In this document: one piece after another, positions 47,320 through 51,547 of the stretch
Numbering within the stretch: the stretch's first letter is position 1
Layout of the letters: every line of letters starts with the position of its first letter
Assembly: GCA_963708045.1 (NCBI GenBank)
Contig: OY970181.1
Location: 259,740 to 323,739 of the forward strand
Reading direction: 5' to 3'
Length of the DNA: 64,000 nt
From: an uncultured bacterium
GTDB lineage: Bacteria > Patescibacteriota > Patescibacteriia > CAIQCM01
The notes under the pieces: model-generated
What the model saw: the letters and a program-made list of their open reading frames with translations, nothing else
What the model was told of the DNA's origin: nothing
Database searches by the model: none
Program-made: the position numbers and the translations under genes

Positions 47320-48654
47320 TTATTTTTCAATCGTTCCCGTCTCTAATGCTTCAAAAGCCGAACCGGGGATATTTTTTAGCGTGTTAAGGTCTTCGTCGTT
47401 CCAGCCTGGGCTATAGGCGCCCTGAAAATACCACGACGAGCCGTTGTCGGCCAAAATCATTCCGTATTTTTTCATCGCGGTCGCGATAATTTTTGCTTGC
47501 GTCGGAAGCTTAGAAATATCGTAGCTGGCTTTTAGCCTGACGCGTAGTCCCATCGGCGGCAGAGTAGTGCTGGTACTGGAACTTGCCAAATGCCGCGCCG
47601 GAAAAATATATCCGGCTTGCGTTTTTGGCGCGGTAAAACGGATGGCGTGATTAATGACGCCGGCCATCACTTCGTCGTAACGCACCAGACCCGGGAGAAT
47701 CGGGAGGCCGGCGGCGTCGGCCGAAGTCCAACCAGCCGGCCTGACGGCGTTTGATTTTAAATCCCAAATCGCGCCCGAGCCAGCGTGCCAACCGGCGCCA
47801 GCCGACGAATTAAGTGAGGCGTCGTAAAGTTCGTAAAGTTTGCATTCGTCTTTTTGCAGGATCAAAAGATGTTGGTCAGAGCCATCTTCAATATTTGGAT
47901 TAGCTGGAATCGGATACGGACCAACGTCGCTTTCGTCGGCATAATCAAAGGTGACGGAAACTTTTGACGTGGAATTGTCGGCGATATTATAAGGAATGCC
48001 GTATTCACGAGTTTCGCCAAAGTCGGGGTGCAAGCCTTTGCTTGAACCAATAGACGCGATATACGCGCTTGAATTTTTATTAACTGTTAAATTAGTAACG
48101 TCTTCGTTCCAAGGATTATCTGCGGGGAAAATAGAACAGCCAGCAATGGTTGGGTTGGAACCATTTGCGGCCGGTATCGGATTGTCCATTGTATATTGCT
48201 CATCGTTCATCGTAATTGAATTAAGATCATCGTTCGTTATGCCAAGTCCGCAGGCGCGCATAATCTGGTATGCCGCGTCGCCGTCCTTAATATATGAAAG
48301 CGTTTTTGTGCGCGGACAAAGATAATACGCTTCGCCGTGCGCTTCAACACGCAAAACGATTTTTCCCATTAGCCGTGTTCGGAGGGCAGTGTTGCCTGCG
48401 GCAAACTTTGCGTAATCGCTTTCGGAAATTCCTAACCCAAGCGCGCGCATAATTTGGTAAGCGGCACTGCCGTCTTTTAAATACCAACGCTTTTCATCGG
48501 TCGGGTTAACGTACCAAGCTTCGCCATTGGCTTGCACTTGGAGAAGAACATAACCTTTAAGCCGCGCCGAAAGTGAACCCGCCGCACCCACAAACGCTGG
48601 AAACGTTAACGCGATTATAAAAATTATTATTGCGAATTTTTTTATTGAGTTCAT
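47320..48654 (-). CDS. secreted hypothetical protein with two N-terminal ~55-aa repeats
   Basis: Signal peptide. The repeats share the motif DGSAAYQIMRALGLGI / DGDAAYQIMRACGLGI. Large C-terminal domain of unknown function. Confidence 0.45.
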   Translation of the reverse strand: MNSIKKFAIIIFIIALTFPAFVGAAGSLSARLKGYVLLQVQANGEAWYVNPTDEKRWYLKDGSAAYQIMRALGLGISESDYAKFAAGNTALRTRLMGKIVLRVEAHGEAYYLCPRTKTLSYIKDGDAAYQIMRACGLGITNDDLNSITMNDEQYTMDNPIPAANGSNPTIAGCSIFPADNPWNEDVTNLTVNKNSSAYIASIGSSKGLHPDFGETREYGIPYNIADNSTSKVSVTFDYADESDVGPYPIPANPNIEDGSDQHLLILQKDECKLYELYDASLNSSAGAGWHAGSGAIWDLKSNAVRPAGWTSADAAGLPILPGLVRYDEVMAGVINHAIRFTAPKTQAGYIFPARHLASSSTSTTLPPMGLRVRLKASYDISKLPTQAKIIATAMKKYGMILADNGSSWYFQGAYSPGWNDEDLNTLKNIPGSAFEALETGTIEK

Positions 48655-48772: not shown

Positions 48773-48806
48773 ACCCCTCCTCCGGCTGGCGGAAGAGGGG
48801 GTGCGG
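48773..48806. terminator. hairpin cccctcctccggc-tgg-cggaagagggg (terminator of paralog A; duplicated at 49768)
   Basis: Near-identical copy downstream of each of the two paralogous genes. Confidence 0.6.
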
Positions 48807-48815
48807 ATTTACTCC

Positions 48816-49688
48816 TTAGAGCGGATTGTTTCTGATTAGCTGTTCAAGCGCGGCAAGGCCGGCGAAGAGCGCAAGCGCGTGCGCGGAGCTGTCCATATTG
48901 TGGTCGCAAAAATCGTAGCCGTACATTTTCCTGAAAGATGATTGCGTTGGGAAAAGTCCGCAACCAGATCCTGGTCCCGTGATATTGAGCCAACCGCCTT
49001 CCCCTTCAATGCGGACATTGGTGTTCATTTGGTCAAAACCATCAACCCCCATCATTCTATCCCAAGCGATGAGGATGGCCGCACGTGGTTCCGCGAGATT
49101 CTTTGCCCTGCGGTGACATAGCCAATGGGAGACCGCGCCGCTGTATGTTCCAGCCAGTGCGATGATGCTTGGACGAGAGCTTGTCGTAAAACTCAGGAGT
49201 TGGGGTACTGTTGCAGAGGTGTCGTGCTCGGGCGGCATAGAGCAGATGATTTGCGAAAGTACGGACAGGCTGGCGTGGATAGCTTCAGCTTCTTTCCAAT
49301 CAATTACGGTTTTAAAGCCGCGCTCGCAGTAGAGGCAGGTGTTTCCCAGCTCTTGATCTTCCCCCGTGCCATTGCATTTGTCGCATTTGGTATCGGTGAC
49401 CTTTTTGACGCGCGGGATTTCAAAGCTGAGGTAGGTAAATCCGCGCTCGGCGTCTATCACCTGCTTTAGACCGGTTCCAAAACCCCAGTTTTGTTCCGGC
49501 GCGCAGGAAAAGAATCCGTGCGCTTCAGTGAAATCTGCAAACCCAAGGTGGCCTAGAGAAACCTCGTAGAGTGTTGGCACGATATCGCGATGTATTGCGA
49601 TGGTAATCGCGAGTCGCATTTGATCCCAAAAGAGTTGCGTCCAGCAGGGAATGGATTGATGGCTGAGTACCTTTGGCATTGGTTCCAT
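48816..49688 (-). CDS. hypothetical protein, paralog A, with DnaJ-type CxxCxGxG...CxxC zinc-finger-like motif
   Basis: 290 aa. KCDKCNGTGEDQELGNTCLYCERG. Shares IPCW...GWGF...FEIP.VKK.T...CxxCNGTG...PPE.DT....PQLLSF with paralog B. Confidence 0.5.
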   Translation of the reverse strand: MEPMPKVLSHQSIPCWTQLFWDQMRLAITIAIHRDIVPTLYEVSLGHLGFADFTEAHGFFSCAPEQNWGFGTGLKQVIDAERGFTYLSFEIPRVKKVTDTKCDKCNGTGEDQELGNTCLYCERGFKTVIDWKEAEAIHASLSVLSQIICSMPPEHDTSATVPQLLSFTTSSRPSIIALAGTYSGAVSHWLCHRRAKNLAEPRAAILIAWDRMMGVDGFDQMNTNVRIEGEGGWLNITGPGSGCGLFPTQSSFRKMYGYDFCDHNMDSSAHALALFAGLAALEQLIRNNPL

Positions 49689-49767
49689 CTTGTTCGTACC
49701 TTTCTTTTAATGAGCTAGTCGGTTTTGTCCTCGGCCAGATCTTATAACTGATTTATATATAGTGCAA

Positions 49768-49802
49768 ACCCCTCCTCCGGCGGGCGGAAGAGGGGTGCGA
49801 GA
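49768..49802. terminator. hairpin cccctcctccggc-ggg-cggaagagggg (terminator of paralog B)
   Basis: Second copy of the 48773 element. Confidence 0.6.
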
Positions 49803-49811
49803 TGGGAGTTG

Positions 49812-50684
49812 CTAGTACCCAAGCGCTTGGCGCGCTTCGGTTTCAATTGCGGCGAGCGCGGCAAGCAAAGTAAGAAGCTGAAACGGGCCGTCTATGTTGT
49901 GGTCGGAGAAGCTGTAACCTCCGGTTTCTGGAACATGGCCGCTATCGGGGTTAAGACTGCAAGCGTCGCCTGGGCAATGAATGTTTACCCAGCCGCTTGC
50001 ATACGCTATTTGCGCGTCAAAACGGTGGTAGCCTTTTTCTTTTTGGCCGTGCATTTGTGTCCAAACGGCGGTCATTGCGCTCGTTGGCGTCTCAAGATTC
50101 TGGACACCCAAACGACGGAACCAGTCCACGAGAAGAAAGCTAAATTCGCCAGAGAGTCCGTAACGACCGGACGAAGCGCAAACGTCAAACGACAAGAGTT
50201 GCGGTGCTTGGGAAGGTGTGTCGTTCTCTGGCGGAAAGCGCCCGAGCGCCATACAGAGTAGAGCAATGCTTGCCGAAAGCGGCCAGATCGTAGCTCGGTC
50301 GTAGTAATAACATTTTCCGTTGGTGCAATGTGGGCACTTGTCATCGCGCTCATCATCGTGACCGGTTCCATTGCAGAAGGTGCAATCGTTCTCGGTGGTT
50401 TTTTTGACCAGCGGAATTTCAAACACAAACGGAACAAAACCGTCAGGCGTTACCTGGGCTTGTTTCAGGCTCGCGTTAAAACCCCAACCGCCTTCGCTCG
50501 CCGCGGAAAAGGTTGTTCCTTTGGGCAGGGAGTGGAGATAGATTGGAATGATCGGCGCGACTGCTGGAATTTTGTAGAGCTCGTGAACAATGCTTTGATG
50601 CACAAGAATTCCAATCGTCGGCGGATTGTCTTGCCAAACTAACTTCATCCAACAAGGGATGACTTTGTCGGTTAATCTGCTCAT
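49812..50684 (-). CDS. hypothetical protein, paralog B, with CxxCxGxG...CxxC motif
   Basis: 290 aa. DCTFCNGTGHDDERDDKCPHCTNGKC. The upstream leader (ggccgaatcttatagctg) also resembles that of paralog A (ggccagatcttataactg). Confidence 0.5.
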   Translation of the reverse strand: MSRLTDKVIPCWMKLVWQDNPPTIGILVHQSIVHELYKIPAVAPIIPIYLHSLPKGTTFSAASEGGWGFNASLKQAQVTPDGFVPFVFEIPLVKKTTENDCTFCNGTGHDDERDDKCPHCTNGKCYYYDRATIWPLSASIALLCMALGRFPPENDTPSQAPQLLSFDVCASSGRYGLSGEFSFLLVDWFRRLGVQNLETPTSAMTAVWTQMHGQKEKGYHRFDAQIAYASGWVNIHCPGDACSLNPDSGHVPETGGYSFSDHNIDGPFQLLTLLAALAAIETEARQALGY

Positions 50685-50781
50685 TGGTTCACCCTTTCTT
50701 TGGATGCTGTGAGTGTCTAGTAGAATGTAAAAGGTTCTGGCCGAATCTTATAGCTGCTTATCAAAAAACGCAAATATTTAT

Positions 50782-51321
50782 TTGTCGTCGTCCCGGAATG
50801 ACGCCGTTAAATTAAAAATCATTAATTTATTAATTGAGTTGGTGGTTGGCTTGACTTTTGGTGCGGGCGTTGGTAATTTTCTGACAGTCGCAGTTAACAA
50901 TCAATTCAAGAAAGAGAGGCTTCTGATGGCTGATGAAAGCGGAACAAGAATTGGTCGTTTGGACGATTTGGTCGGTGTTGATTTGTCGGGCTTCAAAGTT
51001 GTCAGAATGTTTGAGGCCTGCTCCGTCAATGAAGACGGGACAAGAGTCCGTTCGCTTGGTTTTTTTGTGAACAAGGACGTCGCGACCGTTTTCGCCGCCA
51101 ACACCAAAACCGGAGAAAGTGGTACGAGAGTTTCGCTGGCGCTGGTTTTGACCGATGGTCAAGTCAGTTTTGTCCTTTCAAACCAAGAGCCGGCTCAGAT
51201 CCCTGATGAAGCACAAGAACGACTCCGGCTTCGCGAAGTTGTTCTGGACAAGCTTACGTCATCTGAACGCGCGCTTCTTGGTCTCGTTCCTCCTGTGAGG
51301 ACGGCGGAGCTAAAGGAATAG
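50782..51321 (+). CDS. hypothetical protein
   Basis: ORF with coding-like composition. The true start may be the internal MADESGTR. No motif. Confidence 0.35.
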   Translation: MSSSRNDAVKLKIINLLIELVVGLTFGAGVGNFLTVAVNNQFKKERLLMADESGTRIGRLDDLVGVDLSGFKVVRMFEACSVNEDGTRVRSLGFFVNKDVATVFAANTKTGESGTRVSLALVLTDGQVSFVLSNQEPAQIPDEAQERLRLREVVLDKLTSSERALLGLVPPVRTAELKE

Positions 51322-51447: not shown

Positions 51448-51534
51448 GGTGAGGTGGCTGAGTGGCCGAAGGCGCCTGACTCGAAATCAGGTGTACCTGT
51501 AAGGGTACCGTGAGTTCAAATCTCACCCTCACCG
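51448..51534 (+). tRNA. tRNA-Ser (anticodon CGA), class II with long variable arm
   Basis: Acceptor ggtgagg/cctcacc with discriminator G. Anticodon stem cctga/tcagg, loop ctCGAaa. Variable arm gtacc..ggtac. T-arm gtgag-ttcaaat-ctcac. Confidence 0.85.
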
Positions 51535-51547
51535 CTTTGGATTTAAA

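What the first reader, a model, noticed from the sequence alone, without database searches (positions are those of the whole stretch)
48773..50780. Tandemly duplicated ~1-kb unit (leader + gene + identical terminator) encoding diverged paralogs with a DnaJ-type CxxCxGxG zinc-finger motif
Two adjacent 290-aa minus-strand proteins share a conserved scaffold: IPCW, GWGF, FEIP.VKK.T, CxxCNGTG...CxxC, PPE.DT, PQLLSF. They are otherwise only ~30-35% identical. Their downstream hairpins are near-identical (cccctcctccggc[t/g]ggcggaagagggg), and their upstream leaders are also similar (ggccagatcttataactg versus ggccgaatcttatagctg). The CxxCxGxG...CxxC spacing is that of DnaJ/zinc-ribbon Zn-binding repeats. 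The family is unknown to me. High protein divergence combined with conserved non-coding flanks suggests either diversifying selection on the proteins or a repeat-element-borne terminator.
Basis: seen in the sequence. Interest (0 to 1): 0.6.

Follow-up and report, generated by a model that had tools for sequence, protein, structure and literature searches.

The report
Tandem paralogs of unnamed CPR protein
Two neighbouring genes encode old, strongly diverged copies of a widespread but unnamed protein of candidate-phyla-radiation bacteria that matches no known fold; the near-identical hairpins and leaders beside them are conserved terminator and promoter modules, not traces of a recent duplication.

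Summary
Two 290-aa minus-strand ORFs (A 49812-50684, B 48816-49688) are true paralogs: 34% identity, E 1e-49. Each is followed by the same 27-nt hairpin (26/27 identical) and preceded by a similar promoter and leader.

They belong to a large family that is almost entirely Patescibacteria/CPR: 1341 clusters at 50% identity, all named 'hypothetical protein'. The family has no Pfam, NCBIfam, PHROG, PADLOC or PDB relative. High-confidence AlphaFold models gave no significant Foldseek match.

The CxxCxGxG motif is a DnaJ-type zinc knuckle inserted into the core. Family members carry 0, 2 or 4 repeats.

Diversifying selection is not supported. Synonymous sites between A and B are saturated, dN/dS is about 0.2-0.3, and B keeps the family-conserved residues.

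The hairpin is not tied to the paralogs. In sister genomes the same hairpin also ends an unrelated GP88 gene that sits in B's slot. Another relative carries a different tandem pair. The locus is modular, with conserved promoter and terminator boxes around fast-evolving or exchangeable genes.

Function is unknown. The best lead is recurrent adjacency to thymidylate-cycle genes in about six independent synteny groups. Overall this is an ordinary tandem paralog arrangement in an interesting orphan family.

The parts
49812..50684 (-). Paralog A: 290-aa member of the unnamed CPR family. It has positional orthologs in sister genomes at 69%, 59% and 57% identity.
   Evidence: family HMM score 311 bits; AlphaFold model pLDDT 86.8, pTM 0.89
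48816..49688 (-). Paralog B: 290-aa long-branch member of the same family, 33-39% identical to every other member found. It occupies the slot that holds a GP88-family gene in sister genomes.
   Evidence: (279 bits)
50316..50384 (-). Zinc-knuckle coding segment of A: C101xxC104xGxG ... C117xxC120xxG, two DnaJ-type repeats. The Cys4 single-zinc site is inferred.
49317..49385 (-). Zinc-knuckle coding segment of B: C102xxC105xGxG ... C118xxC121.
49769..49795 (-). Terminator-like hairpin after A: 11-bp stem with one G.U pair, loop CCCGC, tail TTTG. Its 3' end abuts the -35-like box of B.
48774..48800 (-). Terminator-like hairpin after B: the same stem, loop CCAGC, tail TGTTTAATTA.
   Evidence: (top-ranked terminator-like site)
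50685..50775 (-). Promoter-like box and 5' leader of A: TTTGCG (50769-50774), 16 nt, TATAAGAT (50745-50752), TCGGCC, then AAAGAAAGGG Shine-Dalgarno. The function is inferred from conservation, not from a consensus scan.
   Evidence: not flagged by the sigma-70 scan
49689..49768 (-). Promoter-like box and 5' leader of B: TTTGCA (49763-49768), 16 nt, TATAAGAT (49739-49746), CTGGCC, then AAAGAAAGG Shine-Dalgarno.

Best explanation
What it is (shown). The region holds two adjacent, separately bounded genes. Each has:
- a clade-specific promoter-like box, TTTGC[GA]-N16-TATAAGAT-YYGGCC;
- a 45-55 nt leader with an AAAGAAAGG ribosome-binding site;
- a 290-codon ORF;
- a G+C-rich 11-bp hairpin.

The proteins are paralogs of a Patescibacteria-wide family of about 290 aa that is normally single-copy and has no name.

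The protein (model-based). The AlphaFold model is a two-lobed alpha+beta protein. Each lobe runs beta-hairpin, two helices, beta-hairpin, strand, long helix. It has no significant structural relative.

A DnaJ-type CxxCxGxG zinc knuckle is inserted after the second hairpin of lobe 1. It is an accessory module, because family members carry 0, 2 or 4 repeats.

The best-conserved polar residues lie in lobe 2: Q162, C242, H262-N263-x-D265 and Q269-Q270. I infer that they form the binding or catalytic site. B keeps all of them except the QQ pair.

How the arrangement arose (inferred). The A/B split is old, since synonymous sites are saturated. Both copies are under purifying selection. The near-identical non-coding pieces are functional promoter and terminator modules kept by selection and probably homogenised locally. 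They are not leftovers of a recent duplication. The same hairpin also ends an unrelated GP88 gene in B's slot in sister genomes, and the same promoter box is kept across genomes whose silent sites are saturated.

The locus next to tRNA-Ser is modular and varies between relatives:
- A + GP88 in L001 and L002;
- A + another diverged paralog (P0020), followed by a GP88-type promoter, in L189;
- the P0020-type gene with a different upstream gene in L124;
- A + B in the window.

The hairpins most likely act as intrinsic terminators on the mRNA strand, because the G.U pairs exist only on that strand.

Function (weakest step, inferred). The family is probably a cytoplasmic housekeeping protein linked to thymidylate or DNA-precursor metabolism. 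The second copy may be a sub- or neo-functionalised partner, possibly forming a heteromer with A.
For: Paralogy.

Family size, length and taxonomy:
- 1341 representative clusters with E <= 1e-3 and 386 with E <= 1e-30, nearly all 280-300 aa.
- 74 species-level loci, almost all CPR.
- 456 further members, all 'hypothetical protein'.
- The window is the only one of 77 loci where two copies lie in the stretch examined.

No known relative:
- Pfam, NCBIfam, PHROGs, PADLOC, PDB sequences.
- Foldseek of the full model (pLDDT 86.8, pTM 0.89) and of the C-terminal half: best E 0.008-0.07, TM <= 0.36.

Zinc knuckle: sub-threshold hits to DnaJ_CXXCXGXG, anti-TRAP, Ydj1 and DnaJ. Of 263 members, 7 have no CxxC pair, 239 have two and 5 have four.

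Old split and purifying selection:
- A against B: pS 0.73, dN 0.76.
- A orthologs: dN/dS 0.15-0.25, against 0.03-0.13 for neighbouring genes.
- HMM scores: B 279 bits, A 311 bits.

Hairpin shared with an unrelated gene: L001 4738-4767 and 5818-5847; L002 8890-8919 and 10009-10038. GP88 identity is, and it is unrelated to B.

Modules conserved despite saturated silent sites: dS between the window and L001/L002 is 1.3-1.7 for all genes, yet the promoter box and hairpin stem are kept.

Second tandem pair and breakpoints: L189 and L124.

Thymidylate link, within 3 genes of the family gene in L003-5, L019, L029, L031, L034, L040, L051 and L065: Tmk, DHFR, ThyA-like, ThyX, Dut, dCMP deaminase, SHMT, FolD.
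Against: - Within each genome the two hairpins are more alike, loops included, than orthologous hairpins between genomes. Selection on a stem does not explain that; gene conversion or a later copying event has to be assumed.
- The promoter assignment rests on conservation only. The sigma-70 scan did not flag it.
- The U-tract after A's hairpin is only TTTG.
- B's origin is unresolved. Its nearest relative is P0021 from another organism (39% identity, 44% bootstrap), not A.
- The thymidylate association covers only about 10 of 77 loci, roughly six independent synteny groups.
- Most neighbours are unrelated housekeeping genes, and only 19 tight same-strand neighbours were found, all different.
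- No experiment supports zinc binding, the proposed site or any activity.
Confidence: 0.6

Rival explanations
1. A recent tandem duplication of the whole unit was followed by very fast, positively selected divergence of the proteins. The flanks are alike simply because they are young.
For: - The hairpins are 26/27 identical and the leader boxes 15/18 identical.
- A-type genes evolve 2-3 times faster in dN than their neighbours.
- In L189 the intergenic region upstream of the second paralog is 84-86% identical to the region upstream of A' in L002, while the two proteins are 44% identical.
Against: - Synonymous sites between A and B are saturated: pS 0.73, third-position identity 37%.
- dN/dS is 0.15-0.3 everywhere.
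- B keeps the family-invariant residues and scores 279 bits on the family HMM.
- NJ bootstrap puts A with its orthologs and excludes B in 199/200 and 100/100 replicates.
- Sequence between the conserved modules does not align.
Confidence: 0.1
2. B is a xenolog rather than an in-situ duplicate. It was brought in by recombination into a slot bounded by the conserved hairpin and promoter modules next to tRNA-Ser. That slot holds GP88 or another paralog in relatives, so this would be cassette-like exchange.
For: - B's nearest relative is P0021 from another organism, where it is the only family gene on the 2.4-kb contig and lies beside tRNAs.
- The slot content differs between sister genomes.
- L124 and L189 are 96% identical from the promoter onward but differ upstream.
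- tRNA-Ser(CGA) borders the locus, and the genes beside it also vary.
Against: - B carries the clade-specific promoter and leader.
- No integrase, transposase or attC-like site was seen in the locus.
- The phylogeny is unresolved: 44% support for B+P0021, and average-linkage clustering groups B with the A clade.
Confidence: 0.2
3. The hairpin is a mobile or REP-like palindromic repeat family that landed beside these genes by chance and has nothing to do with them.
For: - The same hairpin follows unrelated genes: the A ortholog, GP88, and a 74-aa ORF in L124.
- The loop sequence GCCGACAC is kept in 4 of 5 copies in the relatives.
Against: - There are only 2 copies in 64 kb, 2 in L001 and 2 in L002, all at this locus.
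- Of 109 metagenome stretches matching the stem, only L124 has this version. The rest have other loops and flanks.
- The G.U pairs make the stem strand-specific, as expected for an RNA terminator.
Confidence: 0.07

Closest known systems
DnaJ/Hsp40 cysteine-rich zinc-finger domain (Pfam PF00684) and anti-TRAP (PF15777)
   Same: Both have CxxCxGxG repeats with DnaJ-like spacing. The family profile hits Ydj1, DNAJA3, DnaJ and anti-TRAP at exactly this segment (E 0.003-0.06). A few members have four repeats, as DnaJ does.
   Different: - Most members have only two repeats, so one presumed zinc centre.
- The motif is inserted in an unrelated alpha+beta scaffold.
- There is no J domain, G/F region or DnaJ C-terminal domains.
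- Scores of 18-24 bits are below the Pfam cutoff of 32.7.
- Some members lack the motif altogether.
SRPBCC / START / Bet v1 helix-grip fold
   Same: The weak Foldseek lists for both models are dominated by these proteins, which have an antiparallel sheet packed on a long C-terminal helix.
   Different: No hit is significant: E >= 0.03, probability <= 0.35, TM <= 0.36. The family has two such lobes plus a zinc knuckle. This is a resemblance only.
Rho-independent (intrinsic) terminators
   Same: A G+C-rich stem lies directly after the stop codon. G.U pairs occur only on the mRNA strand. In the relatives a T-run of 6-7 follows.
   Different: In the window the T-tracts are weak (TTTG; TGTTTAATTA). 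The loop and pre-stem sequence are conserved far more than a terminator needs, and copies within a genome are homogenised.
Integron gene cassettes (attC-bounded) and REP elements
   Same: Variable genes are each followed by the same imperfect palindrome, and gene content differs between close relatives.
   Different: - The hairpin is only 27-30 nt, with no R/L boxes.
- No integrase or RAYT gene is present.
- The genes have their own promoters.
- The hairpin is not dispersed in the genome.
Thymidylate-cycle gene clusters (ThyA/ThyX, DHFR, SHMT, FolD, Tmk, Dut, dCMP deaminase)
   Same: The family gene sits inside or beside such clusters in about six independent CPR synteny groups.
   Different: It shows no sequence or fold similarity to any of these enzymes. 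The association is absent in most loci, including the window itself.

Membership tests
DnaJ central cysteine-rich domain (PF00684) | Score at or above the Pfam gathering threshold (32.7 bits) | tested here: not met
   A and B give no hit at E <= 1. Other members score 18-24 bits.
DnaJ central cysteine-rich domain (PF00684) | Four CxxCxGxG repeats forming two zinc centres | tested here: not met
   A and B have two repeats. Of 263 members, 239 have two CxxC pairs, 5 have four and 7 have none.
DnaJ/Hsp40 co-chaperone | J domain with an HPD motif, plus C-terminal substrate-binding domains | tested here: not met
   No DnaJ (PF00226) or DnaJ_C hit. Whole-protein NCBIfam DnaJ hits cover the zinc segment only, E >= 4.6e-6.
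DnaJ-type zinc knuckle | Zinc bound by the four cysteines | not testable with these tools
   This needs metal analysis or a solved structure.
GP88 (PF17338) | Pfam hit above 24.4 bits | tested here: not met
   B occupies the slot of a GP88 gene in sister genomes (73.8 bits there), but B itself has no hit and no BLASTP similarity to it.
T-fold (tunnelling fold) enzymes | Structural match to T-fold proteins | tested here: not met
   I considered this because each lobe has the order beta-beta-alpha-alpha-beta-beta. No T-fold protein appears among the top 50 Foldseek hits for the full model or the C-terminal half.
Intrinsic terminator | G+C-rich stem-loop followed by a U-tract, directly downstream of a stop codon | tested here: inconclusive
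   B's hairpin is the top terminator-like site in the scan. A's hairpin has only TTTG and was not listed. The orthologous hairpins have T6-T7 tails. No transcript data are available.
Dispersed palindromic repeat family (REP-like) | Many copies spread over the genome | tested here: not met
   Two copies in 64 kb, both at this locus. The rest of the genome is not available.
Tandem gene duplicates | Adjacent, same-strand homologous genes | tested here: met
   BLASTP E 1e-49, same length, same strand, 123 nt apart.
Genes under diversifying selection | dN/dS > 1, or dN well above an unsaturated dS | tested here: not met
   A against B: pS 0.73 (saturated), dN/dS about 0.3. A orthologs: 0.15-0.25. 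Site-specific tests are not possible with so few sequences.

The most novel reading that the evidence does not exclude
The family is a missing, new-fold component of thymidylate or deoxynucleotide metabolism in CPR bacteria. It could be an enzyme or a zinc-dependent assembly factor working with ThyA/ThyX, DHFR and Tmk, using the conserved Q...C...H-N-x-D site. In this clade the gene sits in a hairpin-bounded, exchangeable slot where extra fast-evolving copies are gained and lost.
Probability: 0.15. Interest if true: 0.75.

Novelty: new variant of a known kind. Interest (0 to 1): 0.4.

Why it matters
CPR/Patescibacteria have tiny genomes and depend on salvage for DNA precursors. This family is about 290 aa, is found in nearly every CPR lineage sampled here and is usually single-copy. 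It has no name, no Pfam model in the library used and no structural relative despite a confident model. That makes it a good target for structure and function work.

Its repeated placement among thymidylate-cycle genes gives a testable lead.

The locus also carries a caution. Near-identical non-coding flanks around very different proteins can come from conserved, locally homogenised promoter and terminator modules and modular gene exchange. They need not indicate recent duplication or diversifying selection.

Tried and rejected
- Profile libraries. Pfam, NCBIfam, PHROGs and PADLOC scans of A, B and relatives gave nothing beyond the zinc-motif hits.
- PDB sequence searches with a single protein and with a 77-sequence profile returned only DnaJ-type zinc segments, plus two non-significant hits to ribosome-hibernation-like proteins (E 0.09-0.18).
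- Foldseek of the full model against PDB and BFVD, and of the C-terminal half against PDB, gave no hit with E <= 0.001. This rejected my T-fold idea and a ThyA-like idea based on the PCW motif. The PCW cysteine is also not conserved (95 of 155 members).
- An internal-duplication test of the N-terminal lobe against the C-terminal lobe by hhalign was negative (probability 0.2).
- Rfam found no family in the leaders or hairpins.
- Gene-neighbourhood clustering of 77 loci found no universal operon.
- Literature searches for the family and for GP88/PF17338 were unproductive.
- NJ phylogeny with bootstrap could not place B.
- Leader comparison could not show whether B's leader is closer to A's or to that of the second-slot paralog P0020.
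- The first related-loci run with the 77-sequence alignment failed for lack of a conserved stretch. A 25-sequence subset worked.
Full report
**1. Observation**

The ORF list shows two ATG-initiated 290-aa ORFs on the minus strand: A at 49812-50684 and B at 48816-49688. BLASTP gives 34% identity over 262 residues with almost no gaps, E 1e-49, so the shared motifs are not chance.

The 27-nt palindrome CCCCTCTTCCGCC[C/A]GCCGGAGGAGGGG (mRNA strand) occurs exactly twice in 64 kb, 16-20 nt after each stop codon. None is expected by chance. Both copies fold stably at -24 to -26 kcal/mol.

The unit period is 994-1006 nt.

**2. The protein family**

Word-indexed searches found only a handful of relatives. 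An exhaustive profile search found many more:
- 1341 representative clusters at E <= 1e-3;
- 386 at E <= 1e-30;
- nearly all of them 280-300 aa.

A scan of species-representative genomes returned 74 loci. Almost all are labelled Patescibacteria, Parcubacteria, Microgenomates or related CPR groups. A further 456 members are all called 'hypothetical protein'. Among the 77 loci analysed, the window is the only one where two copies lie in the stretch examined. One other genome (UBA6220) has two unlinked copies that are 24% identical.

No library holds a relative:
- Pfam, NCBIfam, PHROGs and PADLOC hit only the zinc motif, below threshold.
- PDB sequence searches hit only that same motif.

AlphaFold2 on an 8-sequence alignment gave a confident model (pLDDT 86.8, pTM 0.89). 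Each of its two lobes runs beta-hairpin, two helices, beta-hairpin, strand, long helix. Foldseek against the PDB and BFVD gave no hit with E <= 0.001 and a best TM of 0.23. The C-terminal half, modelled alone (pLDDT 84), also found nothing. Its weak list is dominated by SRPBCC/START/Bet v1 proteins at TM <= 0.36.

The T-fold idea I had drawn from the secondary-structure order is therefore not supported. The two lobes also show no sequence similarity to each other.

**3. The zinc motif**

The profile matches Ydj1, DNAJA3, DnaJ and anti-TRAP precisely at the CxxCxGxG pair (E 0.003-0.06). It matches PF00684 at 18-24 bits, below the cutoff of 32.7.

Of 263 members:
- 239 have two CxxC pairs;
- 5 have four, the full DnaJ arrangement;
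- 7 have none (examples P0018, P0115).

The motif is thus a DnaJ-type zinc knuckle used as a variable insertion in the core. It is not evidence that the protein is a DnaJ.

The nearly invariant polar residues outside the knuckle are Q162, C242, H262, N263, D265, Q269 and Q270, all in lobe 2. The PCW cysteine is not conserved. I infer that the lobe-2 cluster is the functional site. This is untested.

**4. Age and selection**

A against B:
- nucleotide identity 47%;
- third-position identity 37%;
- pS 0.73 (saturated);
- dN 0.76.

A-type orthologs in the window, L001, L002 and L189 show dN/dS of 0.15-0.25. Flanking genes show 0.03-0.13 for the same genome pairs. The family therefore evolves 2-3 times faster than its neighbours but under purifying selection. 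As an example, the 444-aa neighbour is 83% identical between the window and L001, against 69% for A.

B scores 279 bits on the family HMM, against 311 for A. It keeps all 45 columns that are invariant in the 8-sequence alignment. Nothing supports diversifying selection.

B's placement is unresolved:
- It is 33-39% identical to everything.
- Its nearest relative is P0021 (39%), the only family gene on a 2.4-kb contig from another organism.
- NJ bootstrap groups A with its orthologs to the exclusion of B in 199/200 and 100/100 replicates.
- Support for B+P0021 is only 44%.

**5. The non-coding modules**

In sister contigs L001 and L002 synteny is conserved: Bax1-I, the A ortholog, gene X, the 446-aa protein, NTP-transferase, a solute-binding protein and pilins. 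Gene X is not a paralog. It is a GP88-family protein (PF17338, 74 bits) unrelated to B.

Even so, the same hairpin family follows both the A ortholog and GP88. In L002 the two copies are identical, loop included. Within each genome the two copies resemble each other more than they resemble their positional counterparts in other genomes. That points to local homogenisation.

The stems contain G.U pairs only on the mRNA strand, and T6-T7 tails follow in the relatives. This fits intrinsic terminators.

The promoter-like box TTGCG-N16-TATAAGATTCGGCC is conserved upstream of A, B, the A orthologs and the L124/L189 paralog. Silent-site divergence between these genomes is dS 1.3-1.7. GP88 has a different promoter.

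A metagenome scan for the stem found 109 stretches. Nearly all have unrelated loops and flanks. Only L124 carries this version, and it lies at the same locus. The hairpin is therefore neither ubiquitous nor a dispersed repeat.

**6. A second tandem pair and modular exchange**

Contig L189 carries, in order:
- an A-type gene, 77% identical to L002's;
- the hairpin;
- an intergenic region and promoter 84-86% identical to the region upstream of A' in L002;
- a second paralog, P0020, 44% identical to its neighbour and 37% to B;
- a related but different hairpin;
- the GP88 promoter.

L124 is 96% identical to L189 from the promoter onward. Upstream it has a different gene, also ended by the hairpin.

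tRNA-Ser(CGA) borders the locus in both the window and L002, and the genes next to it also differ.

The locus is thus a modular, variable region in which conserved promoter and terminator boxes frame genes that are gained, lost or exchanged. Whether A+B and A'+P0020 descend from one old duplication or from separate events cannot be decided with these data.

**7. Function**

There is no universal operon. Immediate neighbours are very diverse, and only 19 tight same-strand neighbours exist, all different. This matches the stand-alone unit seen in the window.

The one recurrent theme is the thymidylate cycle:

| Loci | Gene order around the family gene |
|---|---|
| L003/L004 | dCMP deaminase, family gene, DHO-dehydrogenase-like, SHMT, FolD, Tmk/dNK |
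| L029 | ThyX, DHFR, family gene, Dut |
| L034 | family gene, ThyA-like, DHFR, Dut |
| L040 | Dut, Tmk, ThyX, family gene |
| L051 | Tmk, ThyA, DHFR, family gene |
| L065 | ThyA-like next to the family gene |
| L019, L031 | Tmk next to the family gene |

That is about 10 of 77 loci, or roughly six independent synteny groups. By my rough estimate, about two such loci would be expected by chance.

DNA-metabolism genes also recur: a PD-(D/E)XK nuclease four times, plus Mfd, GyrB, DnaG, TopA and DprA.

I therefore propose, at low confidence, a housekeeping role linked to dTMP or DNA-precursor metabolism.

**8. Verdict**

- The paralogs, the unnamed family, the DnaJ-type motif and the separate promoter and terminator modules are supported.
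- Diversifying selection and a genome-wide repeat family are not supported.

The tandem arrangement is ordinary. What deserves follow-up is the orphan CPR-wide family with no fold match and a thymidylate-cycle association, together with the modular locus architecture.

Noticed in passing
window 51448-51535 (+); L002 6159-6247: tRNA-Ser(CGA) borders the locus in both the window and the sister contig. The genes between the tRNA and paralog A differ. The window has a 179-aa ORF at 50782-51321 (+) with no homolog found. L002 has a 200-aa gene plus Bax1-I.
   Followed up: partly
window 47320-48654 (-): A 444-aa protein with a signal-peptide-like N-terminus and an internal repeat (GEAWYVNP...DGSAAYQIMRALGLGI, twice). 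It has no Pfam or PADLOC hit and is 83% identical in L001.
   Followed up: partly
L001 4920-5795; L002 9114-9983: A GP88-family (PF17338 / DUF7227-like, phrog_1392) gene with CxxC motifs occupies B's slot in sister genomes. It has its own TTGACG-N17-CATATT promoter and the shared hairpin.
   Followed up: partly
L034 8901-10667; L065 6500-7882: CPR thymidylate-synthase-like proteins are fused to PterinBD-DUF4346; the L034 protein also carries an MtrA-like domain. They are 461-589 aa and lie next to the family gene.
   Followed up: no
L049 and L065 (both Patescibacteria UBA6220): One other genome has two unlinked copies of the family, only 24% identical. One of them lies next to a ThyA-like gene.
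   Followed up: partly
L086, L105, L108, L182 and other contigs of sample Ga0196970: An unrelated multi-copy repeat with hairpin CCCCTCTTCCGAGCGCAGCCGGAGGAGGGG and conserved flanks recurs at 190-500 nt spacing in another organism.
   Followed up: no
P0174, P0186 (family members): Pfam PF27659.1 is precomputed for 2 of 120 listed members. The model is absent from the local Pfam copy, so its identity is unknown.
   Followed up: partly
window 49763-49795 (-): The 3' end of A's hairpin directly abuts B's -35-like TTTGCA. The weak TTTG tail of A's terminator therefore overlaps B's promoter, and read-through from A into B is plausible.
   Followed up: no
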